A stretch of DNA of 64,000 bases from Naegleria gruberi. Taxonomy: Eukaryota. Below the pieces are notes generated by a model. That model made no database searches. It saw nothing but the letters and a program-made list of their open reading frames with translations, and was not told where the DNA came from. Below, piece by piece: positions 2,408 to 53,516 of the stretch; the first letter of the stretch is position 1; every line of letters starts with the position of its first letter. The DNA lies in NCBI GenBank assembly GCA_000004985.1, contig GG738882.1. One strand, given 5' to 3'. The position numbers and the translations under genes are program-made.

Positions 2408-2863
2408 NNNNNNNNNNNNNNNNNNNNNNNNNNNNNNNNNNNNNNNNNNNNNNNNNNNNNNNNNNNNNNNNNNNNNNNNNNNNNNNNNNNNNNNNNNNNN
2501 NNNNNNNNNNNNNNNNNNNNNNNNNNNNNNNNNNNNNNNNNNNNNNNNNNNNNNNNNNNNNNNNNNNNNNNNNNNNNNNNNNNNNNNNNNNNNNNNNNNN
2601 NNNNNNNNNNNNNNNNNNNNNNNNNNNNNNNNNNNNNNNNNNNNNNNNNNNNNNNNNNNNNNNNNNNNNNNNNNNNNNNNNNNNNNNNNNNNNNNNNNNN
2701 NNNNNNNNNNNNNNNNNNNNNNNNNNNNNNNNNNNNNNNNNNNNNNNNNNNNNNNNNNNNNNNNNNNNNNNNNNNNNNNNNNNNNNNNNNNNNNNNNNNN
2801 NNNNNNNNNNNNNNNNNNNNNNNNNNNNNNNNNNNNNNNNNNNNNNNNNNNNNNNNNNNNNNN
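2408..2863. other. Assembly gap (run of 456 N)
   Basis: Literal N characters in the sequence. The X-filled ORFs in the track across this interval are artefacts. Confidence 0.99.
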
Positions 2864-16550: not shown

Positions 16551-16623
16551 GGGGTCATGGCGCAGTCGGTAGCGCGTAGGTCTCATAATCCTAAGGTCGT
16601 GAGTTCGATCCTCACTGACCCCA
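16551..16623 (+). tRNA. tRNA-Met (anticodon CAT), elongator type
   Basis: Cloverleaf GGGGTCA/TGACCCC acceptor, D-arm GCGC-AGTCGGTA-GCGC, anticodon loop CTCATAA, T-arm GTGAG-TTCGATC-CTCAC (T54, elongator type). Followed by a TTTTT Pol III terminator at 16625-16629. Confidence 0.85.
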
Positions 16624-21715: not shown

Positions 21716-23588
21716 TTACAATAATAATTGTTGAAGTGTTGCTTTTCCAGCACCGCTTTCACAAAACTTTTCAAAAGATAACTCTTTCAATTGAGCTAAA
21801 GTATCATTTAAAGCCAAATCAAACATGTCAGATGCTGGTGTTAATAAATGATATTTGACATGACTCTTTGAATCATAGGGTATATTAACATTCTTTCCAG
21901 ATGTATCTGATAAATATTTTTCGTAAATATTCTTTGCTTCCTCTTCCATGCTACTCACAACACCTTCAATATGTGAATATTTGTTTTTGTAATCTTCTGC
22001 CTCCTTGTAGAACATGCACAAATCTTGTGTATCATTCCTTGCACAATATTCCACAAATATTTTAAATGTTGATTCATTTTTCAGTAATTGAACTAGACTA
22101 AACTTGTCACTTGCTTTTTGTAAAACTCCAAGTTCTTCTTCTAATAATTTGATATGTTCATGTTGTTTTTCAGTTTGTTGGAATAAACGTTCATTTTCCT
22201 GCTCTAAAACATTGACTTTTTGTTGAAGAACTATAAACTTTTTTTCCAAAACTCCATATTCATTATCAATCACTCCTTTCATTGATTTTAAAAATCCAGT
22301 CAATCTCTGATCTAATTTTTCTCTATTGGTGTGAATGGATTTTTCAATATCGTGATCCAATGAATAGGATGAAATACTTGGATTACTTCCTCTGCTCCTT
22401 ACTGAAAATTCATCTCTTGATTCAGAATTTTGAGAGATTGGACTAGTATCTGATGAATTTTCTGATAAATCACTACCAATACTACTTGCACTAGTACTTT
22501 TCATTATATTATCTTCATAGGAAGGTCTAAATACAGCAACAAATGCCAAATTATCATTGGATCCTTCATCTGATGGAATCTCTCCCAACGATAATTCAAT
22601 TGGAAAATTATGACCTTGTTTATGTTTAGCCAACATTCTTCTAGGTTTACCAATTAATCTCTTATCATTATTCTTTTTAAATCTTTCTAAATAACCATCA
22701 TGAAATCTGGCATACATTGACGGCATTAAAATTGAAACATTTTTAGATAAAATTTCATCTCTTCTCCATCCAAATAATTCCTCAGCTGATTTGTTAAATC
22801 CAACAATGACACCCTTCTCATCTGAAATAACAGTTGGATCCAAAACTGCCTCTAAAACATGCAGCATTGATTCCATTCTTGATTGTTTAATTGGAATTGA
22901 TTGTTCTAATGAAGAATCCAATCCAAAACCACTTCCACTTCCACTACTACCCAATACACTATGTCCAATTGCATTACCACCACTCGTTGCTCCACCAATC
23001 ATTCCACTCAATGAAGAATTTGAACCTGAATTGGTTATATGATGATTCGAATCATTTAAAATACTCTGACTTGGTGAGATACGTAATGCTTTTGGAAGTG
23101 ATAAATTTAAAGCATTCATCCATTGAGAATGTAATTGTTGATCTTCTGCTAGTAAAATTAGAGTTTCACTTCCTTCTTGAAATAGAGCTATGGAAAAATC
23201 TTTTCCACAGACGTGTTTTCCATTGTGTAATACTCTTGCTGGTTGCTGTTGTTGATGATTACTGGATAGAGAAGATGATGAAGATGAATTATTCGAAATT
23301 TCACCTAAACTACTCGAAGATGAATTAAATGATGATGAAAATTTATGTGAATTTCTTCTTCCGCATAAATCAAACTCTTCCATAGGTTGAACACTTTCTT
23401 TAGTTTTGAATTTGTATAGAATTCCATCTGAAAGCACAAACCAAAATCTGTTTCGTATACAATGTTCGAATCGATTATTAATATAGAGTATTATATAATA
23501 CAAACTTTTTCCAACGACCAAAAAAGCCTGCTTTCTGCTGTAAATATCCCGAAAGAGAGGGAAAAGAAGATTCACTCGACAATGTCAT
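21716..23588 (-). CDS. PH - PAS - coiled-coil - RGS domain signalling protein. 2 exons; start corrected to ATG at 23588.
   Basis: Exon 1 gives MTLSSESSFPSLSGYLQQKAGFFGRWKK. A GTTTGT..AACAG intron of about 57 nt joins it to FWFVLSDGILYKFK, the canonical PH beta-strands. PAS: ISDEKGVIVGFNKSAEELFGWRRDEI. RGS: FSLVQLLKNESTFKIFVEYCARNDTQDLCMFYKEAEDY..AKNIYEKYL..SFEKFCES. Confidence 0.7.
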
Positions 23589-26734: not shown

Positions 26735-28730
26735 GTCAACTGGTATTGATGTTGAAAAGTATTTGAAAAGTAAAAAGAAGGAAAAGCATAACCAAAAGAA
26801 ATCTGGAGAATCTTCATCAAATCCAAGTACAAGTTCCAATTCTAATAATAATAGCGCCAATGATTTATCTGCAAGCTCAGAAGATAAACAACCTAAAAAG
26901 AGAAATGGACACAAACGTAATGATTCATTGAGGGCAGAAGATTTCAATTTAATTCGAAGACGTTCAGCTTCAGTGATGGCACCAAATGACCAGATCCAGT
27001 CACATAACAGTAACTTGGGTCCAAACATGTTAAACACTTCATTAGATTCGAATAGTTCAGCCACTGATAGTGAAAAGGCAATTTATGCTATTGAACCAAA
27101 TAAGATTTCAACACTTCTTGTGGAGGTGATCGAAGCATGTAATTTGGATGCAAAGAATACCAATGATACTTCAGATGGTTTTGTTGTACTCAAATTTGAA
27201 GGACAAGAAGTTAAAACTGAAGTTATTTGGAAGGAATTGAATCCAAAATGGAATGAACGTTTCACATTCATTGTGAAGAATATTTCCTCCAATTTACAAT
27301 TAACAGTTTATGATGAAAATAGACTTTCAAAGGCAGAATTGATTGGTGTTGTTGATTTCAATTGTCAAGAATTGGCAGATGAAGTTAAACATGATATTTG
27401 GCTTGATTTGAAGAATAAGGATTCCAACACATTTGCTGGACGTATTCATCTCAAATGTATTTTTACCAGTTCTGAAAGTGGTAGTATGGGCTACTTGAAG
27501 AAGATTACAAATTTGAATTTTTATGATACTTTGAAAGAGTTTTTGGTTAATACTTCACCTTCTGTTTTTATTGGATTATTTGACAATAACAAGTTAAATG
27601 TAGATGATAAGATTTTCAAATCACTCATTTATTTAACAACTTATGGAGATAATAAGAATACGATATCTGACGCATTTAATGTTTCAGTGATGAAATATAT
27701 CATTCGTTTAGAAGTGGAAAAGACCATTAGAATATCTCAATTATTGAGATCTAACACCATTAGTACCAAACTAGTTGGAATGTATCTGAAGATTTTTGGA
27801 CAGGGATATCTTAAAAAGACTCTTCAAGAACTCACTCAAAAGATTTGTGAAGAAGATAGATTTTTGGAATGCTCCCCTGATACTATCAGAAAGGAAGATA
27901 GTTCAGTCGATCCAGATGCAAAGGCAAAAGAAAATTTGAATGAAATTATTGCCTATGCAAGACAGTACATGCAATTAATCAAGAATTCAGTTTCAAATAT
28001 GCCACCAGATATTAGACAAATAACTTCTCATTTGAGAGAACAAGTAATGAAAAAGTATGAAAATGTTGTTGCTGTTAGCGAGAGTACTGAAACAAATCAA
28101 TTGGATAGTGCTAGTATGGGTACTATTGCAGCAACTTCACTATTATTCCTTCGATTTATTACACCTTGTATCACTGCTCCTCATTTGTTCCAACTTGTAC
28201 AAACAATTCCTCAGAAGAATGCTCAACGTACTTTAATGTTGGTTTCTAAAATTTTACAACAACTTGCCAATGAAACAGAATTCAGTGAAAAGAAGGAAGC
28301 TTTTATGGTTCCTGCCAATGAATTCTTGAGAGAACAAAAATCAATTTTGAGAAGTTTCCTTGATGATGTTTGCGATGTTAATAAGAGTGGTTTCACACTT
28401 CGTAAGAGTACTGACGGAACTGAAAGTGAGGAAAATAATGATAGATTATTGTGGTCTCTCTACAATATTCATGTACTTTTCTATGATAATGATTCTATTT
28501 TATTCCCATTATTACAAGAATCTAAAAAGAAAGGAACCACAGCACCATTCTCCTACTTTGATCTCAATAATGAGAGTGCAGAAGAACTGGCTGATAAATA
28601 TGATCAACTGAGAAAAGTTATTGCTCGTTTAGGATCACCACCTCAGCTTTCTCTAGCAACCAGACAAAAGATTGCTACTGCCTTCTCCAAGCGAAGTGAT
28701 ACTGATATACCAGCAATCAACCTGAATTAA
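26735..28730 (+). CDS. C2 domain + RasGAP domain protein. The 5' exon boundary is an acceptor at 26734 with no own in-frame ATG before 26970.
   Basis: C2: LLVEVIEACNLDAKNTNDTSDGFVVLKFEGQEVKTEVIWKELNPKWNERFTF. RasGAP signature ..LLFLRFITPCITAPHLF (FLR..CPAI..P). Confidence 0.65.
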
Positions 28731-30774: not shown

Positions 30775-32769
30775 ATGTCTGAAGTATTTACTCACTGTTT
30801 CCCTCACACAACTTCTATCAATGCATCGGCCGATGAGGGTAGTGCTGATCAACATGTTGATATATTTAAATTTCATAAATTCACTCAAGAAATTCAGCCA
30901 GGATTACACTTAACAATTGAAGCTGCAAGAAAATTAGGGCACTATTTATTGATCATCATGTGGAGATTTGTATTGAAGAGTCCCATGTTGTTCCGAGTCA
31001 GAGATGAATATGTGGAACAAGTTAAAATATTGGAGAAATTTTGCTTTGATAGAATTGAAGAGTTTGATAGGAAAGTTTGCTATCCAAATCATTTGTTTGA
31101 AGATACAAATGTGGAATTGTTTGATGACATGACACAGGTTAGAGAAGGTGAAGAAAATGAAGAATATGAACGAGAGGAGAAGAGAATTAAATTAGATAGT
31201 GAATCACGAAAGAAAGTTTACTCACTTTCAAATTATTTCAATACAATTGTTAGCAAGTACTTGATTGGAGAGTTGGCAAAAATGGGAATTACAACGATTA
31301 ATGATTTTTTAACAAAAACAAATAAGGAACCACTTACTATTAGATATGAGGAGCTAAGAAATATGGTATTGAAATATTTTGAATATAATCCTTCAATTTT
31401 TCCCATTGAAGATCAAGACATTAATTTGTATTTTGTTGGAGTGGCGGCATTATTGGAATATTTCACATCTGAGTTGATAGAACTGGGAGGAAATACACTA
31501 AGAGGAATGGGATTGGAATTTATTATTCCATCTGGTTTTGAAATTAACGTTGTAGCAGATGGTGAATTGAATAGAACAGTGTTATTTCACATGAGTCATT
31601 TACCAATTGTTGATTTTAATTATTTTTATGGAACAAATCAAGTAGTATTACCTCCCATTACAGTGAATGAGAAACCCAGTAGTGGAGAATATAATTTTAC
31701 TCTAATTCCATCTGATTTACACTACACTATCATACTAAAAAATCTCTCTTCTTTGGAAGAACTTTTGGCTATGAGATTGGTATGCAAACAATGGAATTAT
31801 TTCATCATGAACGATAGCAATGTTTGGAAACGATTGATTTGTAACAATATGATTTCAGAAGATTTATTCAGATTCTGTGATTCTTCCTTTACTGTTGAAG
31901 AATTGGAAACTATTTTGGGTAGAGGAAGAAATCAAATACCTCTTCATTTCAGTCAGCAAGTGATTAATTACTTTTATGAAAAGAATGATTGGAAATCTCT
32001 GTATTTCACTCTCGTACGAAGACATTTAACATTTATCAGAGACTTGGACGAAATGAAATCAAGAGAATTTTTTAACAAGCATTTCCAAGTCAGCTCTTCA
32101 ATAGAGGAATATAATAATTCCAAAAAACAACTTCAAATAGGAGTTACAACAGGTTTGCTAAATTATACGAATCTTACAAAAAATCCCTCATCACATGATG
32201 ATTCTGAGATTTACATTCCTAGAGATGCTATTTCTGAATTTAAGAAATTGGGAAGTAATTATTCATTGATAGGGGTGGTTGACTTTACAAAATTCTCCAC
32301 CTTCATTTCATGCCGCTTATTCCCAAAGAGTGGACTATTATATTGCTTTGGAGATTTCACTTCAGGTCAAGGTGAATTTCTCTACTTTGAAAATTATTCT
32401 TTCGAATCTGATGATGTTATTATATTTGAAACTAATGACGATACATTTACAGAACCAGAACCAGTGAATCCATTCCAGGTCTGTAATGAACAAGTTGTGG
32501 TCAATCAGTCAAATTGTTGCCCACTCTTTTATTTACAACAGGCAGAGGGAGAATTGTCAGGTATTTCATATTTGGCTCCAAGTGTTTTTTTCAACAACAC
32601 TGCACATGAAGAAAGGGGTGAATCCTATCAAGAGGACAATATTGTACTACTTTCAGCAACATTTAATGTGGGAAAAACTATTTCAGTTTTTATTTCTAGA
32701 GATGATTTAATCTTACGAAAGTTCAGTAATGCAAAACTTGATATTTGTGCAATCAATATTTATTATTGA
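30775..32769 (+). CDS. F-box domain-containing protein
   Basis: F-box: LIPSDLHYTIILKNLSSLEELLAMRLVCKQWNYFIMNDSNVWKRL. 664-aa single ORF. Confidence 0.55.
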   Translation: MSEVFTHCFPHTTSINASADEGSADQHVDIFKFHKFTQEIQPGLHLTIEAARKLGHYLLIIMWRFVLKSPMLFRVRDEYVEQVKILEKFCFDRIEEFDRKVCYPNHLFEDTNVELFDDMTQVREGEENEEYEREEKRIKLDSESRKKVYSLSNYFNTIVSKYLIGELAKMGITTINDFLTKTNKEPLTIRYEELRNMVLKYFEYNPSIFPIEDQDINLYFVGVAALLEYFTSELIELGGNTLRGMGLEFIIPSGFEINVVADGELNRTVLFHMSHLPIVDFNYFYGTNQVVLPPITVNEKPSSGEYNFTLIPSDLHYTIILKNLSSLEELLAMRLVCKQWNYFIMNDSNVWKRLICNNMISEDLFRFCDSSFTVEELETILGRGRNQIPLHFSQQVINYFYEKNDWKSLYFTLVRRHLTFIRDLDEMKSREFFNKHFQVSSSIEEYNNSKKQLQIGVTTGLLNYTNLTKNPSSHDDSEIYIPRDAISEFKKLGSNYSLIGVVDFTKFSTFISCRLFPKSGLLYCFGDFTSGQGEFLYFENYSFESDDVIIFETNDDTFTEPEPVNPFQVCNEQVVVNQSNCCPLFYLQQAEGELSGISYLAPSVFFNNTAHEERGESYQEDNIVLLSATFNVGKTISVFISRDDLILRKFSNAKLDICAINIYY

Positions 32770-32845: not shown

Positions 32846-33442
32846 ATGTTAGGACGTTTAAGAAACTATGGGCCAACATTCCCAGAGCTAGAAAAAGATT
32901 TATCCACTTGTTTTGTTCATGATTTTGGCGACATGATCACTGTTAATGAAATTAGAGTTGGTGGAAAGACAATTTCCGATCGATATGAAATTCTCTCCCA
33001 TATTATTGATCACAGAAATGGGTGGTCACAGGATGGGAAAAGTACCGATGATATTGTTAAACAAGTTGCCTATGATTTTGTAAAGATGGAATATGGTATT
33101 AATAATCTATTGGATAAACCGTGGACAAGTGAAGAAATTTCTAAAGCAACCAAGAATGAAAAAACCATGTCGTTTAGTCTTCTCAGTTCTGTACCTGTTG
33201 AAGAACCTGAGCCATCAACTGCTATCTATCATCCATTGGAGAAGAGTATTATTGAATATAATGGAGACAAAGTTGTTAGAATTGCTTATTGGAGTAAACG
33301 TAAGAGTGGTGATGGACCTCGTGGAGGGCCTCCTTTTACAACAAAGTTTATAAGAGTTAAACATGAATTTTATGTAAAGAATGGAAAGAGAGTTAATGTT
33401 GGAGAATCTCCTGCAACTTGCCAACATTTTATATTGGCATAA
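32846..33442 (+). CDS. Hypothetical protein of about 199 aa
   Basis: First ATG (MLGRLRNYGPTF..) at about 32846 within track ORF 32729-33442. No motif recognised. Confidence 0.4.
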   Translation: MLGRLRNYGPTFPELEKDLSTCFVHDFGDMITVNEIRVGGKTISDRYEILSHIIDHRNGWSQDGKSTDDIVKQVAYDFVKMEYGINNLLDKPWTSEEISKATKNEKTMSFSLLSSVPVEEPEPSTAIYHPLEKSIIEYNGDKVVRIAYWSKRKSGDGPRGGPPFTTKFIRVKHEFYVKNGKRVNVGESPATCQHFILA

Positions 33443-33523
33443 TTAACATATATACATAAGATTACTTTTTTTTATTGAATGAAATAAAGCAAATTGAAGA
33501 TAATATACAATTTATTAAGGTAT

Positions 33524-35655
33524 TTAAAAGTTTTCCTTGTGGAAAACAAATTGAACAGTTGAGTTCTTGCTCTTATCAACAGCGTACGAGTACACCTGCT
33601 TTGAAAGACCTCCTGGCCCACAAACAAAGACACCCACATTTGGTTTCTTAGCTCCTGAACTATTCTTTTCAACATATCTTCTAATATCTGAGAATTCAGC
33701 ATCCCAATTAGGTCTACCAAAGTTTCTCTTTGAAGAGTCAGCCATCTTTGTCACATGGTCAACCTTGACAACAAAATTGCCAGGGAAGAGACCTGTTTGT
33801 TTGGTTGTAGTGTTGGTACCAGTCCACCAACCAGATTCATCTTGTTCAGATACAACAACGATATCATTTCTATCCAAACTAATTTCATCTGAGCTTTGAG
33901 CATCATATTTGTGCAAAGCACGAACCATAAAATCAACCTTACCAGATTGTTGAACATTACCAGCAGTGTTTGATTGAGTTTGATATTCAGAGGAAGTAAA
34001 CATAATCTTTTTAACATCATCTGCCTTAAGCATACCTGTCATGTATGTGTGAATATCAAAGAATTCTGGATTTTCAGTTTCAAGTTGATTCAAAATATCA
34101 GAGAACCATTCCCAACTTCCTTCATCACGATTAATCCAGTAGAAACTAGCACGACGAATCTTGAGAGGAGGAGCTTGCCCAGAAGCAGCAGCATCCAATC
34201 TAAATTTGAAATGTTTTAAAAGTGAACTGTATGGAGTAACACCAATACCAGCAGCAATCAACATGACATATTCAAAATCGAAACAATATTCAGCACAAGT
34301 ACCAAATGGACCATCAACACGAATTAAATAATCAGTTCCATCAGGAGTAGTTGGTTTGTTAATTTCAACTGTTGGTCTTTGAGCTGGATTGAAAACATCC
34401 ATCAAAGTATTGGTCCAATCACCAACACATCTAATGTGGAATTGTAAGAATTCTTCCTCAGGAGCAGAAGAAATAGTGAAAGGATGCCATTCGTGTTGAG
34501 AAATCATTGGACAATTCAAGAAACAATATTGACCTGATTCATATCTGAAACTTGGCTTTTCCAATTCCAAGTGAATAACACGTGATGCCAAACAGTGAAC
34601 ACGTTTAACAATGGTCATTTCAGAACCACGCAAATTTCTCATAACTCTTTCAAGAGCATACAATGCCTATGTAAGATCAGTTTCGTATAAAATCAAATTA
34701 TTAGAAACTTACCATTGGAATAAAGAACCAAGCCCAAAATTGCTTTCCATGAACCAACAACAATACGAAAAATACCACAAACAAGTGATGAGCATACCAA
34801 AAGACTGTAAAATTCTTTGTACGACGATAGGACTTGGCAGAGGCAGCATACATGACTAATTAAAATATATTAAACTAAACATTAAATAATATTACTAAAC
34901 ACATACTAAACATGACAATGCAGAGAACATTTCCTGTAGTTCCGTATTTGTTCCACCAACAAGCTTCCAAAGGAGTTCTAGCACTATTATATAATTGCCA
35001 ACAACAAGCATAATTGAGATAGTGTCCTAATGTGTGACCAATTACACATACTACAATCCTATATATTATTATTATGTTATTATATTATTATTATCATTAA
35101 ATATTGATACATTTCATCGTTTTTTTTGTGTATCATCATCATGAGATTCGAATAAAATTTCAACCATCACATCATTAAAAACTAAACTAAACTAAACAAT
35201 AAAACATACCAATAGGCCAAATAACGATGAAAAACCAAATTCTTATCTAATGGGAAAATCGAACCAAATTTCAAACTTCTAAAAACATTCAACAATGTTC
35301 TCATAGTTGGTAAAATCAATAGGGCACAATTAAAATTCAACAATTGGCCGAAACCTCTCGCCAAAGCCACATAGAAAGGAACCACCGTAACACCAGTAAT
35401 ATTAACCAACAGAAGAGCATAATAATATCTGACGAAAGCTTCTGTGAAAAGGAATAGATTCAAAATGACCCAAATTAAAACAACCACTAGTTTTTGACCC
35501 TCTGCTGACCAATAATTCATAAATTCATGTCGATTGGTGAAACGTTTCTTCCACTTGAGAAGGAATTTACGAACGGACGAAATAGATTCGGATGAGAAAC
35601 CATTGGCGAAACAGCCGTAAAAGAAGAAATCACAACAATTGCTAAGAGCACCCAT
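33524..35655 (-). CDS. NOX: NADPH oxidase (NOX/ferric-reductase superfamily), 4 exons, with an SH3 domain inserted in the NADPH-binding lobe
   Basis: Exon 1 (35655-about 35214) has TM helices incl. LNFNCALLILPTMRTLLN. Exon 2 carries the heme-ligand segment GHTLGHYLNY. Exon 3 carries FWYAHHLFVVFFVLLLVHG. Exon 4 (33524-34663) carries the FAD motif HPFTISSAP, the NADPH motifs GIGVTPYSSLL and CGPGGLSKQ, and C-terminal FVFHKENF (NOX2 FIFNKENF). Splice frames checked by hand. Confidence 0.8.
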
Positions 35656-36032
35656 CTTTTGTTTGTTTGGGTGTTGTGGAAATTTGTTGTTTGGTTTTTT
35701 TTTGTGATGATTTGATGAGTGACATTTAATAGCCTTGTCTTTCTACTTGATAAATCAGGTGAAATTTTTCCTTGACATTGAAAGAGAGGTGAGACAATCG
35801 TTTCCCTTTCTTCCTTTTAGACATGGATCATTTATGTTTGTATACTTTGTAACATTGGTTTGATTATCCAACCTTATTGTAATGTTAACTTGTAAACTAT
35901 TCGAAATGAATAGATATTTTGTTGACTCTTCTTATTTGTTCAAGTTTCTTTTAAAGACAAAAAAGTAGTTCGGTTTCTGATACTTCAAAACTGTACATAT
36001 CCAATTTTTAACAATCGAAACTAAACGAAACT

Positions 36033-37202
36033 TTATTGATGTAATTTACATCCAGGACACCTCTTTGGTCTATCCATTCCATGATAAATATCAGGTCGAG
36101 GTGCACCTGCAATCTTTAAAAACCCAACAGCTCCCTTCTCTATTCGAAAGATAGCATGATCCACAAATGAATAAGTTCCTGGCACAATTGCCTCAAACTC
36201 AATCATTGTTGCACCACCTGGTGGAACTTGTGTCACTTGTACATTTCTCTCTGGAGGACTCACTAAATCTCCCTCTCTGAAAACCTTATCAAAAATTGCA
36301 CCAATGACATGAAATGAGGAGGAAAGATTTGGACCTGCATTTCCAAAGTAGAATCGAATACGTTCTCCAGTGTTGGCAAGGAGAGGAGTATCAATGAGAG
36401 AACCTTCTCTTCCATTAAAGACGACATAGGTTGGTTTCTCATCTAATCCATTGGCATACGAATGTTCCATTAATTTTGGATCATCATCTGATGGTTCACA
36501 ATAGAATTCACTTTGCATGACATAGAATTCCTTATCTACTTTTGGCAATCCCTCTTCTGGTTCAACTAACATTAATCCATACATGCCATTACTTATGTGT
36601 GAAGGTACTGGACCTGCAGCACAGTGATAGATAAATAAACCTGAAGTTAATAATTTGAAAAATCCTGTTTTTTCTTCATCTTTTTCTGCCAATAACATTT
36701 CTGCACCTCCTCCTGGTCCTGTCACACAGTGAAAATCAATATTGTGAGCCATACCGGTTTCGTCCAAGTTTAGGTAATTGACTTGCATGACATCTCCAAC
36801 TCTTGCTCTGATAAATGGTCCAGGAACTGTTCCATTAAATGTCCAATATGGATACTTGTACTGTTTGCTGATTGGCTTCACTTCAATTGTGGTATCTAGA
36901 TTAACAACTAATTGAACTGGATAATCACGGTCAATTGGTGGAGGAATTCCAGGAGCTTTTGTTAAAATTGCTTCAACAACTGGCAACTCCAAATTTAATT
37001 CAGGAGCTTTCTTGAATTTCTTCATCATATTTTCAGGAAACAAACTATGTTTCTTTGGTGTTTCTTGTGCTTCAAGTAAACTATCACATTGGTATTTGTA
37101 GTATTGATAAACACCTGTGCCAACAGCACAGGTTAGACCTAGGGATAACACAATGTCAAAAGTCTTTGGTTTGACAGTTCTTAGTCTGTGGAACAGTTTC
37201 AT
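36033..37202 (-). CDS. nirK: Copper-containing nitrite reductase (NirK) with N-terminal presequence/TM anchor
   Basis: All T1/T2 copper ligands are present in the canonical spacing: HNIDFH (His95/His100), YHCAAGPVPSHISNGM (His135-Cys136..His145..Met150), SFHVIG (His255), VDHAIF (His306). N-terminus MKLFHRLRTVKPK + hydrophobic FDIVLSLGLTCAVGTGVY. ATG at 37202, TAA stop. Confidence 0.8.
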   Translation of the reverse strand: MKLFHRLRTVKPKTFDIVLSLGLTCAVGTGVYQYYKYQCDSLLEAQETPKKHSLFPENMMKKFKKAPELNLELPVVEAILTKAPGIPPPIDRDYPVQLVVNLDTTIEVKPISKQYKYPYWTFNGTVPGPFIRARVGDVMQVNYLNLDETGMAHNIDFHCVTGPGGGAEMLLAEKDEEKTGFFKLLTSGLFIYHCAAGPVPSHISNGMYGLMLVEPEEGLPKVDKEFYVMQSEFYCEPSDDDPKLMEHSYANGLDEKPTYVVFNGREGSLIDTPLLANTGERIRFYFGNAGPNLSSSFHVIGAIFDKVFREGDLVSPPERNVQVTQVPPGGATMIEFEAIVPGTYSFVDHAIFRIEKGAVGFLKIAGAPRPDIYHGMDRPKRCPGCKLHQ

Positions 37203-37779: not shown

Positions 37780-37852
37780 TGCCGACACCAGGGATCGAAC
37801 CAGGGACCTTAAGATCTTCAGTCTTACGCTCTCCCAACTGAGCTATGTCGGC
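37780..37852 (-). tRNA. tRNA-Phe (anticodon GAA)
   Basis: Reverse complement is GCCGACATAGCTCAGTTGGGAGAGCGTAAGACTGAAGATCTTAAGGTCCCTGGTTCGATCCCTGGTGTCGGCA, near-identical to the eukaryotic consensus tRNA-Phe. T-stem has one U-U mismatch (51-63). Downstream T-run on the minus strand. Confidence 0.8.
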
Positions 37853-41015: not shown

Positions 41016-41089
41016 TACCGACAATGGGGCTCGAACCCACGACCCCAGGATTAGAAGTCCTGTGCTCTATCCAACTGAGCTATGACGGC
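41016..41089 (-). tRNA. tRNA-Arg (anticodon TCT). Acceptor stem has a G1-U72 wobble and a U5-U68 mismatch.
   Basis: Reverse complement is GCCGTCATAGCTCAGTTGGATAGAGCACAGGACTTCTAATCCTGGGGTCGTGGGTTCGAGCCCCATTGTCGGTA. D-, anticodon- (CAGGA/CTTCTAA/TCCTG) and T-arms are canonical. Confidence 0.65.
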
Positions 41090-50673: not shown

Positions 50674-53516
50674 TTAGGCAGTGGTTGTTGTGTTGAATAA
50701 ATTTGTACCAGTGTAATTGAGATAGAGAGGACCAACAACAAGAGTGATGGTGGCTAATAATTTACAAAGAACGTGAATACTTGGACCAGTTGTGTCTTTG
50801 AAAGGATCTCCAATAGTATCACCAATAACAGCTGCTTTGTGAATGGCAGATCCTTTACCTCCGAGAACCTTGTCCATTTCAGTCAACTTCTTAGCATTAT
50901 CCCAAGCTCCACCAGCATTATTGAAGAAGAGAGCCATTAAGATACAAGTAATAGTAGCAACCATCAAGAAACCAGCACTAACTTCTGCTCCTAGATTTGG
51001 TTGCCCCACAGCAGCACCAACACCCTTAAATATAAACCCAACCAAGACTGGAACTAAAACAGACAAAAGACCTGGGAAGATCATTTGTATGAGAGATGCA
51101 CGAGTAACAATGGCAACACATCTTTCATAGTTTGGCTTTTCTCTGAATTCGAGAATACCTGGCATTTCTTGGAATTGTTTTCTAACTTCTTCAATAACAG
51201 TTTGGGCTGTTGTACCAACAGCTCTCATTGTCAAAGAGCTGAAAACAAAGACTAAGCAAGCACCAATGAGACCTCCAACAAAGACTTCTGGAACTGCAAG
51301 ATTAACAACCTTAAAGCTAGTTCCAATGTATGCTTCAACAGTATCAAGGAAAGCAGAGAATAAAAGGAAAGCAGCAAGGGCAGCAGATCCAATAGCATAA
51401 CCCTTTGTAAGAGCCTTAGTAGTGTTACCGACAGCATCTAATCTGTCAGTAATCATTCTTACATTAGCTGGTAATTGGGACATTTCAGCAATACCACCTG
51501 CATTATCAACAATTGGTCCAAGAGTATCCATAGCTAAAATATAACTAGAAGAACTAAGCATACCAATGGTAGCGACAGCTGTACCAAATAATCCACCAAT
51601 TGGTAATCCATTTTCATCAGTAATTCCACTACTTTTGCCGAGGTAGTAAGATGAAAGAATAGCAACACAAATAACAAAAACAGGGGCACCAGTTGATTCT
51701 AAACCTACAGCAATACCTGAAATAATGTTAGTAGCAGGTCCACTCTTAGACGATTCAATAATTTCCTTCACAGGTCTCCAATTAAAGTCAGTATAATAAA
51801 TGGTGATAAAGACAAATGCAAAAGAGGTAAGAACACCAATCAATCCACAAAGCATAAACTTCCACCAAGCATTTGGATAAACATCAGATCTCAATAACCA
51901 ATATGAACAAACTACAAAGAGGCAAGTTGTGACCAGAACGCTGACATAAAAACCACGGTTGAGGGCCTTCATTGGATCATCAAGGAACTCTTGTCTGATA
52001 GATGATTCTTCATTTTCTTCATTTTCCATTAAGGTTGTTTCTGACAACTCAGTATTACGAATGAGAGAATAGCTATCGTCTCCAGCACTTCCCATCTCTG
52101 TGACATCTCTAACACGAACAAAGAACATTCCTACCCAAGTTCCAATCATACCACAAACGTGAACAACAAGTGGGAAAATAATATATGAAAGTGGGGTTGA
52201 AATTTGAGGGAATGCATTGGAAGTAAGGGTACCTGCTAAAATCATTACACCTATATTTTCAGCAGAAATACTTTCGAATAAATCAGAACCTCTTCCTGCA
52301 CAATCACCAACGTTATCTCCAACAAGATCAGCAATAACAGCAGGATTTCTAATGTCATCTTCTGGAATATTTTGTTCAACCTTTCCGACAAGATCAGCAC
52401 CAACATCTGCAGCCTTGGTAAAGATACCTCCTCCAAGTTGAGCAAATAATGCTGATAAGCTGCAACCAAAAGAAAATCCGACAATCATTCCAACAATTTG
52501 AGTAGGAGTAATCATTTCCTTTGGAATGGCAAGATATAAAATAGAGAAAAGTACAATAACTCCCAATACAGATAAAGAAACTACTAAAAATCCAACAAAA
52601 GCTCCAGATCTCATTGCAATATTTAAAGCTTCTCTGTAGCTTCTTGTAGCAGCATTGGTTACTCTCGAGTTTGCATTAACTGATACAAACATTCCAACAA
52701 ATCCAGATAATCCAGAAAATAAAACTCCAATCAAGAAACTAATAGTAACTATAGCAGCAATGGCTGCAATATGAATATCAGGGTCTGTAGAACTTTTTGA
52801 CCTTAATAAATAAAGACCAAATAATAAGAAAGCAACTGGGATAGTAATACCACCTATTGCCAAATATTGAGTTTTTAAGAATCCACTGGCTCCTTCCTTA
52901 ATAGGATCAGCTACAGCAATCATTGCACTAGTACCTCTATTTTTTCTCATCACATAAACAGCAATAAAGAAAGCTCCTACCATTGAAAGCAAACAAGAGA
53001 CAATCACAAATGAAATTTGTCCCCAAGCTTCACCGTAAACAGGTGCTGTAACAGTATATGAAAATGAAACTGCTGTTGTATCATTTGTATATTTAAGTTT
53101 GCTATTAAGAGATGCTGAAATTGAGCCAACACCTGGTGTGTTACCAGCTGTGAGGGAAGTAAATACTCTTCCATCGATTCCCGATTTTGCAATTGATGGG
53201 GAAAAGTATGGTTTCATCTTATAATTTGATTTTGGGGTTGCGTAAAAATACACAGTTACATTCGGAACAGGATTACCCAATTCACCAAGAACCTGAACAA
53301 CCAATGATTTGGAGTATTTTGTTGAGGCTTCGAGTGTAACAGCTTCCATTGGCTGCATCAACTTAATTTTATATGTTTGAGCAACTGTGATCATCATCCG
53401 AAGTTAAATATTAATAAGATAATTGTTATCAACCTACCGATCGATCCAATCATCGTTAAAAGAATCATACAGACCACAAACCATGATGGTCTTTCAGTGA
53501 TTCTTGTTCTGTGCAT
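50674..53516 (-). CDS. H+-translocating inorganic pyrophosphatase, K+-independent type II (AVP2-like), with signal peptide/TM and an N-terminal lumenal extension. 2 exons.
   Basis: Core PPase motifs GGIFTKAADVGADLVGKVE, DNVGDCAGRGSDLFES, and GNTTKA (Lys at the K+-dependence position, hence type II). Exon 1 MHRTRITERPSWFVVCMILLTMIGSI joins via a 46-nt intron (53398-53443) to VAQTYKIKLMQ.., an extension of about 140 aa before the first core helix. Confidence 0.8.

What the first reader, a model, noticed from the sequence alone, without database searches (positions are those of the whole stretch)
33755..33928. SH3 domain embedded inside the NADPH-binding lobe of a NOX enzyme
In the last exon of the NOX gene, between the FFDIHTYMTG segment and the GRPNWDAEF..CGPGG C-terminal NADPH-binding motifs, there is an insertion of about 110 aa. 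It sits at the position of the NOX1-4 'NOX insertion sequence' and contains a textbook SH3 domain (ALHKYDAQSSDEISLDRNDIVVVSEQDESGWWTGTNTTTKQTGLFPGNFVVKV, with the ALYDY/WW/G.FP.N.V hallmarks). In animal NOX2, SH3 domains reside on the cytosolic regulators p47phox/p67phox and dock onto the p22phox proline-rich tail. An SH3 built into the catalytic subunit suggests a differently wired, possibly self-contained, regulatory mechanism.
Basis: partly seen in the sequence, partly recalled or inferred. Interest (0 to 1): 0.6.

Follow-up and report, generated by a model that had tools for sequence, protein, structure and literature searches.

The report
SH3 domain inside Naegleria NADPH oxidase
The window holds the Naegleria gruberi NADPH oxidase gene, and its enzyme really does carry a protein-docking SH3 domain inside its NADPH-binding lobe, but this was already reported in 2013 and neither its binding partner nor its function has been tested.

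Summary
On the minus strand, a four-exon gene (35655..33524) encodes a 627-aa NOX. It is 100% identical to N. gruberi 'NADPH oxidase' XP_002674758.1 / UniProt D2VM77.

Residues 495-549 (33925..33761) score as SH3 in Pfam (E about 1e-16 for the 58-aa segment alone). In an AlphaFold2 model they fold as a confident small beta domain (pLDDT 95-97).

Alignment to human NOX2 shows that 99 residues (460-558) replace NOX2 484-506. That is the NOX insertion sequence (NIS), which docks p67phox and Rac in activated NOX2.

The same architecture occurs in 25 homologues: Naegleria, Willaertia, Acrasis, Pharyngomonas and the jakobid Andalucia. The SH3 ligand-groove residues are conserved across them.

The feature is not new. 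Zhang et al. [quoted passage not shown]

My best mechanism, inferred and untested, is a built-in docking module that recruits a proline-rich activator or organiser to the NIS.

New here are:
- the exact NIS placement
- the spread across Discoba
- an independent N-terminal SH3-NOX fusion in Fabomonas
- a clade-restricted internal PxxP

Interest is low to moderate.

The parts
35210..35655 (-). NOX exon 1 (ATG at 35655; aa 1-149, cytosolic N-terminus, TM1-TM3 start, haem His143)
   Evidence: The ORF, the GTATGT donor at 35209 and the spliced model are 627/627 identical to N. gruberi XP_002674758.1.
34907..35058 (-). NOX exon 2 (TM3 remainder with haem His157, loop, TM4)
   Evidence: It is bounded by the AG acceptor at 35059-35060 and the GTATGT donor at 34906. 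Frame is kept, and the model is identical to the RefSeq protein.
34713..34855 (-). NOX exon 3 (TM5 with haem His222 and His235)
   Evidence: It is flanked by the 51-nt and 46-nt GT..AG introns. The His residues are invariant in 91 NOX sequences.
33524..34666 (-). NOX exon 4, the last exon: TM6 end and the whole dehydrogenase domain including the SH3; stop codon at 33524-33526
   Evidence: One uninterrupted 1143-nt exon. Pfam gives FAD_binding_8, NAD_binding_6 and SH3. The AF2 model has pLDDT 93.9 and pTM 0.89, and its best Foldseek match is NOX2 8wej_B.
34298..34609 (-). FAD-binding lobe (aa 267-370; HPFT at 34475-34486)
   Evidence: PF08022 at 2.9e-20; coordinates.
34031..34276 (-). N-terminal part of the NADPH-binding lobe (aa 378-459; GIGVTP at 34232-34249), ending in FFDIHTYMTGM
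   Evidence: This is the first half of the split PF08030 hit, and it aligns to NOX2 up to residue 483.
33983..34030 (-). Conserved helical segment LKADDVKKIMFTSSEY (aa 460-475), the start of the NIS-equivalent region
   Evidence: S472 and E474 are present in 25/25 SH3-bearing NOX. The segment is helical in the AF2 model (exon-product residues 215-234).
33926..33982 (-). Variable linker (aa 476-494) leading into the SH3
   Evidence: It is poorly conserved and variable in length across the family. It has the lowest pLDDT of the model, 69-83.
33761..33925 (-). SH3 domain (aa 495-549)
   Evidence: Pfam SH3_1, SH3_9 and SH3_2 all hit. PDB SH3 hits reach 1e-11. The model shows five beta strands at pLDDT 95-97. 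W527, W528, G530 and G539 are present in 25/25, P542 in 24/25, Y501 in 23/25 and D507/E508 in 23/25.
33734..33760 (-). DHVTKMADS (aa 550-558): the D-x-V-T-K-M motif that closes the insertion. It is inferred to be equivalent to NOX2 D500-V-I-T-G-L505.
   Evidence: D550 and T553 are invariant in the 32-sequence alignment and at least 90% conserved in the 91-sequence alignment. The equivalence to NOX2 D500 rests on motif and spacing, because the HMMER alignments stop at 559/507.
33527..33733 (-). C-terminal part of the NADPH-binding lobe (aa 559-627; GRPNWDAEF, CGPGG at 33608-33622, C-terminal HKENF)
   Evidence: It aligns to NOX2 507-570 and forms the second half of the PF08030 hit.
34343..34357 (-). 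KPTTP (aa 351-355), the only recurrent PxxP in the SH3-bearing NOX family and a candidate internal SH3 ligand (speculative)
   Evidence: A PxxP is present here in 14/25 SH3-bearing NOX and in 0/66 NOX without the SH3.

Best explanation
The gene is the Naegleria gruberi NADPH oxidase (NoxA; XP_002674758.1 / D2VM77). It is a NOX1-4/NoxA-type flavocytochrome without EF-hands.

A canonical, ligand-competent SH3 domain plus a short linker (a net gain of about 75 aa) is inserted into the NOX insertion sequence (NIS) of the NADPH-binding lobe, immediately before the conserved D-x-V-T motif (NOX2 D500 equivalent).

The most likely mechanism is inferred, not shown. The SH3 would be a built-in docking module on the cytosolic face of the catalytic subunit. 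It would capture a proline-rich motif of a separate protein: an activator or organiser, or the tail of a p22phox-like membrane partner. That would bring the partner to the element which in NOX2 docks p67phox and Rac and triggers the rearrangement of the dehydrogenase domain needed for hydride transfer.

This reverses the polarity of the animal p47phox(SH3)-p22phox(PRR) link and of the proposed fungal Bem1(SH3)-NoxA(PRR) link.

Shown: gene identity, the domain, its position, and its conservation. Inferred: ligand binding, the identity of the partner, and the effect on activity.
For: Identity: the spliced model matches the N. gruberi protein at 627/627 residues.

The SH3 is real:
- Pfam E-values are about 1e-16 for the 58-aa segment alone and about 1e-14 in the full protein.
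- PDB SH3 hits reach 1e-11.
- The AF2 model has pLDDT 93.9 and pTM 0.89, with SH3 strands at 95-97.

Position: query 460-558 replaces NOX2 484-506. The NIS is NOX2 484-504, and D500G and L505R are CGD mutations that disturb assembly or p67phox-dependent activation (PMC4550764). [quoted passage not shown] The best structural match of the model is the activated-state NOX2 chain 8wej_B.

Selection on the binding groove: across 25 homologues from Heterolobosea and a jakobid, W527/W528/G530 are present in 25/25, P542 in 24/25, Y501 in 23/25, the RT-loop D507/E508 in 23/25 and N544 in 20/25.

Independent fusion: two Fabomonas tropica NOX carry an SH3 at the cytosolic N-terminus instead, with an uninterrupted NADPH lobe. 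This argues that an SH3 on the cytosolic face, meaning recruitment, is what is selected.

Other regulators: no phox-type regulatory subunit was found in N. gruberi by Kawahara and Lambeth 2007. Zhang et al. 2013 reached the same inference.
Against: - No partner is identified. I could not search the N. gruberi proteome for p22phox-like, NOXR/p67-like or other proline-rich candidates with these tools.
I therefore could not check that the SH3 groove is solvent-exposed rather than packed against the dehydrogenase domain.
- The high pTM (0.89) would also fit a fixed, possibly intramolecular, arrangement.
- In this copy the first ALYDY Tyr is His, which could alter or weaken ligand binding.
- I found no functional study of any Naegleria NOX in the library.
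Confidence: 0.55

Rival explanations
1. Targeting rather than activation. The SH3 would tether the oxidase to actin-rich or endocytic structures (pseudopod, phagocytic cup, contractile vacuole) by binding proline-rich cytoskeletal regulators. It would set where superoxide is made rather than switch catalysis on.
For: The closest solved SH3 domains belong to actin- or membrane-associated proteins: myosin-1E at 9.8e-12, sorbin at 4.6e-10, vinexin, CD2AP, Acanthamoeba myosin-IB and cortactin. p47phox SH3 scores only about 7e-7. The Fabomonas NOX carry their SH3 at a quite different cytosolic position, which suits a generic tether.
Against: SH3 sequence similarity is a poor predictor of ligand. 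The insertion point is exactly the NIS, the activator-docking element of NOX2, and it is kept at that point in all 25 homologues. That looks more specific than a tether would need. The two roles are not mutually exclusive.
Confidence: 0.2
2. Intramolecular latch. The SH3 would bind a motif within the same polypeptide, for example the KPTTP loop of the FAD lobe (aa 351-355) or the QAPPLKIRR loop (aa 410-419). This would hold the NADPH lobe in an inhibited or an active conformation, giving a self-contained switch released by phosphorylation or a competing ligand.
For: A PxxP at 352-355 occurs in 14/25 SH3-bearing NOX and in 0/66 other NOX. The AF2 model places the SH3 with high overall confidence (pTM 0.89), consistent with a fixed pose.
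Against: Eleven of 25 SH3-bearing NOX lack that PxxP, including Acrasis and Andalucia, although their SH3 groove is conserved. The co-occurrence is confounded by shared ancestry. KPTTP lies in a well-ordered beta-hairpin region, lacks the basic residue placement of class I/II ligands, and is followed by Asp. APPLK is not a PxxP and is confined to the Naegleria/Willaertia NoxA clade. Contacts could not be inspected.
Confidence: 0.13
3. Inert passenger. The SH3 fold would merely be tolerated in a surface loop and would have no ligand-binding role.
For: The NIS is a variable surface element, absent from FNR-type reductases, so it can accept insertions. His replaces the first ALYDY Tyr in this copy.
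Against: The domain is retained at the same site across Heterolobosea and a jakobid, with the ligand-groove residues among the best-conserved columns of the insert while the adjacent linker drifts freely. Both N. gruberi paralogues keep it at 55% overall identity.
Confidence: 0.08
4. Artefact. The SH3-coding stretch would be an unrecognised intron, or an assembly or annotation error.
For: None found. The only caution is that I saw no cDNA or RNA-seq evidence for this exact locus.
Against: The stretch is in frame with no stop. Its GC (0.395) is like the exons (0.36-0.385) and unlike the introns (0.14-0.24). There is no GTAAGT/GTATGT-like donor inside it. It is identical to the RefSeq protein and 88% identical to the N. 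fowleri orthologue with the SH3 intact. It is present in the transcript-derived Pharyngomonas kirbyi protein from TSA GECH01006356.1.
Confidence: 0.01

Closest known systems
N. gruberi NOX with SH3 in the NADPH-binding domain (architecture 'M17' of Zhang et al. 2013, PLoS One 8:e58126)
   Same: It is the same protein. The window gene is 100% identical to N. gruberi XP_002674758.1 / D2VM77. [quoted passage not shown]
   Different: Nothing differs in kind. Four things are added here: the precise insertion point inside the NIS, groove conservation over 25 homologues, the wider taxon range (Willaertia, Acrasis, Pharyngomonas, Andalucia), and a structure prediction.
Human NOX2 (gp91phox) NOX-NIS, residues 484-504
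   Same: The location is the same in the NADPH-binding lobe, between the Y-x-T-G strand and GRPNW. In both cases it is a NOX-specific surface element. In NOX2 it docks p67phox and Rac and is needed for assembly, as shown by D500G and L505R.
   Different: In NOX2 it is a roughly 20-residue flexible acidic segment, disordered at rest, with no domain of its own. Here it carries a folded 55-aa SH3. Whether p67-like or Rac docking occurs in Naegleria is unknown.
p47phox tandem SH3 binding the p22phox proline-rich tail (animal NOX1-3 assembly)
   Same: An SH3-PRR contact would be used to assemble an oxidase on the cytosolic face of the flavocytochrome (established knowledge; summarised).
   Different: The polarity is reversed, with the SH3 on the catalytic subunit. 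There is a single SH3 rather than a tandem pair, and no PX domain or autoinhibitory region. The SH3 is not specifically related to p47phox SH3 (7e-7 against 1e-11 for myosin-I SH3). No phox regulators were reported in N. gruberi.
Fungal NoxA/NoxB with a conserved PRR near the NADPH-binding sub-regions, proposed to bind the SH3 scaffold Bem1 (Kawahara and Lambeth 2007)
   Same: An SH3-PRR link is placed directly on the NADPH-binding lobe of a NoxA-type enzyme.
   Different: In fungi the oxidase carries the proline-rich motif and the scaffold carries the SH3. In Naegleria the oxidase carries the SH3.
NOX5 / DUOX / RBOH / NoxC (EF-hand NOX)
   Same: A regulatory domain is fused in cis to the catalytic subunit instead of being supplied by separate subunits.
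   Different: Those domains are N-terminal Ca2+-binding EF-hands. No EF-hand hit occurs here, and the SH3 is an internal insertion in the dehydrogenase domain.
Fabomonas tropica NOX with N-terminal SH3 (EukProt EP00163 P025137 and P023000)
   Same: An SH3 is fused to a NoxA-type oxidase on the cytosolic side.
   Different: That SH3 is at residues 8-63, before TM1, and the NADPH lobe is uninterrupted. It is therefore an independent fusion and not a homologous insertion.

Membership tests
NADPH oxidase, NOX1-4 / NoxA-type (no EF-hand) | Ferric-reductase transmembrane domain with two bis-His haem sites (NOX2 H101/H115 and H209/H222) | tested here: met
   PF01794 hits at 3.3e-12. H143, H157, H222 and H235 are invariant in 91 NOX sequences, with spacings of 14 and 13 residues as in NOX2.
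NADPH oxidase, NOX1-4 / NoxA-type (no EF-hand) | FAD-binding lobe (HPFT) and NADPH-binding lobe (GIGVTP, CGP, C-terminal aromatic) | tested here: met
   PF08022 hits at 2.9e-20 and PF08030 at 2e-43. HPFT, GIGVTP, CGPGG and HKENF are present. Foldseek gives 8wej_B at E 2e-28 and csNOX5 DH with TMt 0.86.
NADPH oxidase, NOX1-4 / NoxA-type (no EF-hand) | No N-terminal EF-hand or peroxidase domain; nearest relatives are NoxA-type enzymes | tested here: met
   There is no EF-hand hit. The closest NOX without the SH3 are amoebozoan 'superoxide-generating NADPH oxidase flavocytochrome' proteins at about 38-41% identity. Best PDB hit is NOX2.
NADPH oxidase, NOX1-4 / NoxA-type (no EF-hand) | Superoxide production; dependence on a p22phox-like partner | not testable with these tools
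   No biochemical data were found. The N. gruberi proteome could not be searched for PF05038/NoxD-like proteins.
SH3 domain (Pfam PF00018 / PF14604 / PF07653) | Profile-HMM score above the curated threshold | tested here: met
   SH3_1 scores 59.1 bits (cut-off 22.9) and SH3_9 scores 60.2 bits (cut-off 30) for the 58-aa segment.
SH3 domain (Pfam PF00018 / PF14604 / PF07653) | Small five-stranded beta-barrel fold | tested here: met
   DSSP on the AF2 model gives strands at exon-product residues 246-250, 269-275, 280-285, 291-295 and 299-302, at pLDDT 95-97.
SH3 domain (Pfam PF00018 / PF14604 / PF07653) | Ligand-groove residues (ALYDY tyrosines, RT-loop acidic pair, WW Trp, Pro and Tyr of the P-x-N-Y motif) | tested here: met
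   Y501, D507/E508, W527/W528, P542, N544 and F545 are present and conserved in 20-25 of 25 homologues. The one exception in this copy is H499 in place of the first Tyr.
SH3 domain (Pfam PF00018 / PF14604 / PF07653) | Binding of a proline-rich (PxxP) ligand | not testable with these tools
   This needs binding assays or complex modelling with candidate partners.
NOX-NIS (NADPH-domain insertion sequence) | NOX-specific segment between the Y-x-T-G strand and the GRPNW motif of the NADPH lobe (NOX2 484-504) | tested here: met
   Query 459 aligns to NOX2 483 and query 559 to NOX2 507. The NIS definition comes from PMC4550764.
NOX-NIS (NADPH-domain insertion sequence) | Docking of the activator (p67phox) and Rac; the D500-equivalent residue is required | not testable with these tools
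   D550 is invariant, but its equivalence to D500 rests on motif and spacing only. No binding data exist.
phox organiser/activator SH3 proteins (p47phox, p67phox, p40phox, NOXO1, NOXA1) | Soluble protein with PX or TPR/PB1 modules plus SH3 domain(s), with the SH3 specifically related to phox SH3 domains | tested here: not met
   The SH3 is part of the membrane flavocytochrome. There are no PX, TPR or PB1 hits. p47phox SH3 structures score about 7e-7, well below myosin-I, sorbin and CD2AP SH3 domains.

The most novel reading that the evidence does not exclude
The embedded SH3 would make the heterolobosean/jakobid oxidase a self-contained switch. It would either latch onto an internal proline loop (KPTTP, aa 351-355) or clamp the proline-rich tail of a still-undetected p22phox-like subunit directly onto the NIS. 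Activation would then need no soluble organiser. SH3-PRR coupling at the NIS would also be an ancient mode of NOX control, one that animals later moved out to p47phox and p67phox.
Probability: 0.12. Interest if true: 0.6.

Novelty: already known. Interest (0 to 1): 0.3.

Why it matters
NOX enzymes of the NOX1-4/NoxA type are controlled by separate subunits that assemble through SH3-proline contacts. In human NOX2 the NIS is now known to be the docking site for p67phox and Rac. A lineage that has built an SH3 into exactly that element is a natural experiment in how the activation switch can be rewired. It also points to unidentified partners in Naegleria, a genus that includes the pathogen N. 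fowleri, whose orthologue is 88% identical.

The architecture itself has been in the literature since 2013 and is visible in public domain annotations. The value here is confirmation and sharper framing (NIS placement, conserved groove, breadth across Discoba, convergent fusion in Fabomonas), not discovery.

Tried and rejected
I modelled the exon-4 product (aa 248-627) instead.
- SH3 exposure and contacts.
- AlphaFold-database fold search. The afdb50 library was not installed.
- Extending the NOX2 alignment through D550. A shorter query did not help, and HMMER still starts at S559/Q507. D550 = NOX2 D500 therefore stays an inference from the D-x-[VI]-T-[GK]-[LM] motif.
- p22phox-like partner. 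It is not in the literature for Naegleria or excavates. I ran no further search on human p22phox, because only the best 120 hits are listed and animal sequences would fill them. Ten large neighbouring ORFs contain no p22phox-like or phox-like domain.
- Intron or artefact reading. Rejected.
- Internal ligand. KPTTP is the only recurrent PxxP, but it is absent from 11 of 25 family members and is non-canonical, so I kept it only as a minor rival.
- Early guess at the organism. I first took it for a Willaertia-like heterolobosean on the basis of the 74% top named hit. The cluster look-up corrected this: the 90%-identity cluster representative was only the exon-4 ORF, which hid the full-length N. 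gruberi entry.
Full report
**What is in the sequence**

The finding lies on the minus strand. Reading 33400-36100 in reverse complement and listing ORFs shows a gene of four exons: 35655-35210, 35058-34907, 34855-34713 and 34666-33524. The three GT..AG introns are 151, 51 and 46 nt long and start with GTATGT or GTAAGT. The spliced CDS is 1884 nt and encodes 627 aa.

It lies wholly inside the last exon.

**Is it an SH3, and is it more than chance?**

Yes.
- The 58-aa segment alone scores SH3_9 at 1.7e-16, SH3_1 at 3.1e-16 and SH3_2 at 3.3e-11, all two- to three-fold above the Pfam gathering scores.
- In the full protein the SH3 (aa 496-546) is nested inside a NAD_binding_6 hit that spans 378-609. 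It is preceded by FAD_binding_8 (267-370) and Ferric_reduct (110-232), and there is no EF-hand.
- A sequence search of the PDB gives NOX2, NOX5, DUOX1 and csNOX5 for the oxidase body. For residues about 493-550 it gives a long list of SH3 domains, led by myosin-1E (9.8e-12) and sorbin (4.6e-10). p47phox SH3 is much weaker, at about 7e-7.
- An AlphaFold2 model of the exon-4 product, built on a 91-sequence alignment, has mean pLDDT 93.9 and pTM 0.89. The SH3 forms five strands at pLDDT 95-97, and only the preceding linker dips to 69-83.
- Foldseek against the PDB returns activated-state human NOX2 (8wej_B, E 2e-28) first, followed by resting NOX2 and the csNOX5 dehydrogenase domain.

**Where exactly is it?**

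HMMER aligns query 239-459 to NOX2 269-483 and query 559-627 to NOX2 507-570. So 99 residues (460-558) stand where NOX2 has 23 (484-506). The NOX-NIS is defined as NOX2 484-504 (PMC4550764).

Family alignments divide the 99 residues into four parts:
- a conserved helical piece (460-475, with S472 and E474 invariant in the clade)
- a variable linker (476-494)
- the SH3 (495-549)
- the motif D550-H-V-T553-K-M

D550 and T553 are invariant in a 32-sequence alignment and at least 90% conserved over 91 NOX sequences. By motif and spacing they correspond to NOX2 D500-V-I-T503-G-L505. This last equivalence is an inference, because the pairwise alignments do not extend that far.

The net insertion relative to NOX2 or amoebozoan NoxA is about 75 aa, not 110.

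**Not an intron or artefact**

- The segment is in frame and free of stops.
- Its GC content (0.395) matches the exons (0.36-0.385) and not the introns (0.14-0.24).
- It contains no donor-like hexamer.
- It is present in the RefSeq protein, in the 88%-identical N. fowleri orthologue, and in a Pharyngomonas kirbyi protein derived from a transcript (TSA GECH01006356.1).

**Whose gene is it?**

A look-up of the 90%-identity cluster that contains the exon-4 ORF showed the member 'NADPH oxidase [Naegleria gruberi]', XP_002674758.1 / EFC42014.1 / UniProt D2VM77, 627 aa. BLASTP of my spliced model against it gives 627/627 identity. The window is therefore N. gruberi genomic DNA and the gene is already annotated. 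The second N. gruberi paralogue (P0009, 55% identical) carries its SH3 at 500-550.

**Prior art**

Zhang et al. [quoted passage not shown] Kawahara and Lambeth 2007 had identified the N. gruberi NoxA gene and found no phox-type regulatory subunit in that genome.

I found no functional work on any Naegleria NOX, and nothing on p22phox in excavates, in the held library. The mechanism remains open.

**Distribution and selection**

In the 5.8-billion-protein collection, 25 homologues at 43-76% identity have the SH3 at the same site. They include:
- two Willaertia magna paralogues
- Acrasis kona
- N. gruberi and N. fowleri
- Pharyngomonas kirbyi
- the jakobid Andalucia godoyi
- environmental sequences

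NOX proteins without the insertion begin at about 41% identity: amoebozoan NoxA, Acanthamoeba, Balamuthia and Thecamonas.

Within the insert the conservation pattern is that of a working SH3. W527, W528, G530 and G539 are present in 25/25. F541 and P542 are present in 24/25, Y501 in 23/25, the RT-loop D507/E508 in 23/25, N544 in 20/25, and Y/F545 in 23/25. The adjacent linker varies in both sequence and length. In the Naegleria NoxA copies the first ALYDY Tyr is His (3/25 in the alignment).

**A convergent case**

Two NOX of the ancyromonad Fabomonas tropica (P0053, P0062) also have an SH3. Theirs is at residues 8-63, ahead of TM1, with an uninterrupted NADPH lobe. Two independent fusions of an SH3 to the cytosolic side of a NoxA-type oxidase suggest that recruitment of a proline-rich partner to the oxidase is the selected property.

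**How it most likely works**

[quoted passage not shown] D500G and L505R in or next to it impair assembly and p67phox-dependent activation. It has also been modelled next to the p47phox C-terminus (PMC11647612), and it carries an inhibitory phosphorylation site, Ser486 (PMC8228183).

An SH3 with an intact groove, grafted just ahead of the D500-equivalent residue, is therefore best read as a permanent docking module. It would bring a proline-rich activator or organiser, or the tail of a p22phox-like membrane partner, to the switch region of the dehydrogenase domain.

This would be the reverse polarity of the animal p47phox(SH3)-p22phox(PRR) contact. It would also reverse the Bem1(SH3)-NoxA(PRR) contact proposed for fungi, where the proline motif sits on the NADPH lobe of the oxidase.

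I put about 0.55 on this. Only the anatomy is shown; ligand binding, partner identity and effect on catalysis are inferred.

**Rivals**

- Targeting to actin-rich or endocytic structures (0.2). It is suggested by the cytoskeletal flavour of the nearest solved SH3 domains, and it is compatible with the main reading.
- An intramolecular latch (0.13). The only recurrent PxxP in the family, KPTTP at 351-355 in the FAD lobe, occurs in 14/25 SH3-bearing NOX and in 0/66 others.
- An inert passenger domain (0.08), argued against by groove conservation.
- An artefact (0.01).

**Verdict**

The feature is the published SH3-in-NADPH-lobe architecture of the N. gruberi NADPH oxidase, so novelty is 'already known'.

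Four details are modestly new:
- exact placement within the NIS, in light of the 2024 activated NOX2 structure
- conservation of the groove
- presence across Heterolobosea and in a jakobid
- the convergent N-terminal fusion in Fabomonas

Interest is 0.3. It is a real and curious rewiring with an unknown partner, but it is neither surprising to a NOX evolution specialist nor newly testable because of this scan.

Noticed in passing
P0053 and P0062 (EukProt EP00163 Fabomonas tropica P025137 / P023000): Two ancyromonad NOX proteins carry an SH3 at the extreme N-terminus (aa 8-63) instead of in the NADPH lobe, whose Pfam hit is uninterrupted. This is an independent SH3-NOX fusion.
   Followed up: partly
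window 34343-34357 (-), aa 351-355 KPTTP: This is the only recurrent PxxP in the SH3-bearing NOX family. It is present in 14/25 of them and in 0/66 NOX without the SH3. It could be an internal ligand or a shared-ancestry artefact.
   Followed up: partly
window 34151-34180 (-), aa 410-419 GQAPPLKIRR: A Pro-Pro-Leu-Lys-basic loop lies about 20 residues after GIGVTP, roughly where Kawahara and Lambeth 2007 describe a conserved PRR in fungal NoxA. It is conserved only in the Naegleria/Willaertia NoxA clade and is not a canonical PxxP.
   Followed up: no
window 36033-37202 (-): Directly upstream of the NOX gene on the same strand is a 389-aa two-domain multicopper oxidase (Cu-oxidase_3 + Cu-oxidase_2) with an N-terminal hydrophobic stretch. 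From my own knowledge it looks like a copper nitrite reductase (NirK-type), which is unusual for a eukaryote.
   Followed up: partly
window 2408-2863: A run of N (an assembly gap) produces four spurious overlapping ORFs on both strands in the mechanical ORF list.
   Followed up: yes
window 21716-23575 (-), 26763-28730 (+), 30775-32769 (+), 50674-53397 (-): Neighbouring genes include a PAS-RGS protein, a C2-RasGAP, an F-box protein and a 907-aa H+-pyrophosphatase (E 9e-241). None resembles a phox regulatory subunit.
   Followed up: partly
window 16551-16623 (+), 37780-37852 (-), 41016-41089 (-): Three tRNA genes (Met-CAT, Phe-GAA, Arg-TCT) are scattered among the protein-coding genes.
   Followed up: no
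P0001 (Willaertia magna ABK040_001626): The deposited W. magna orthologue (74% identical) ends prematurely at '...KPKVGKY', just before the CGP motif, and lacks the C-terminal 35 or so residues. This is probably a gene-model error such as a missed intron or frameshift.
   Followed up: no
P0019, P0020, P0025 (environmental SH3-NOX), alignment A1 columns about 330-385: A sub-clade of SH3-bearing NOX has an extra extracellular insertion of about 40 residues between TM3 and TM4 that the others lack.
   Followed up: no
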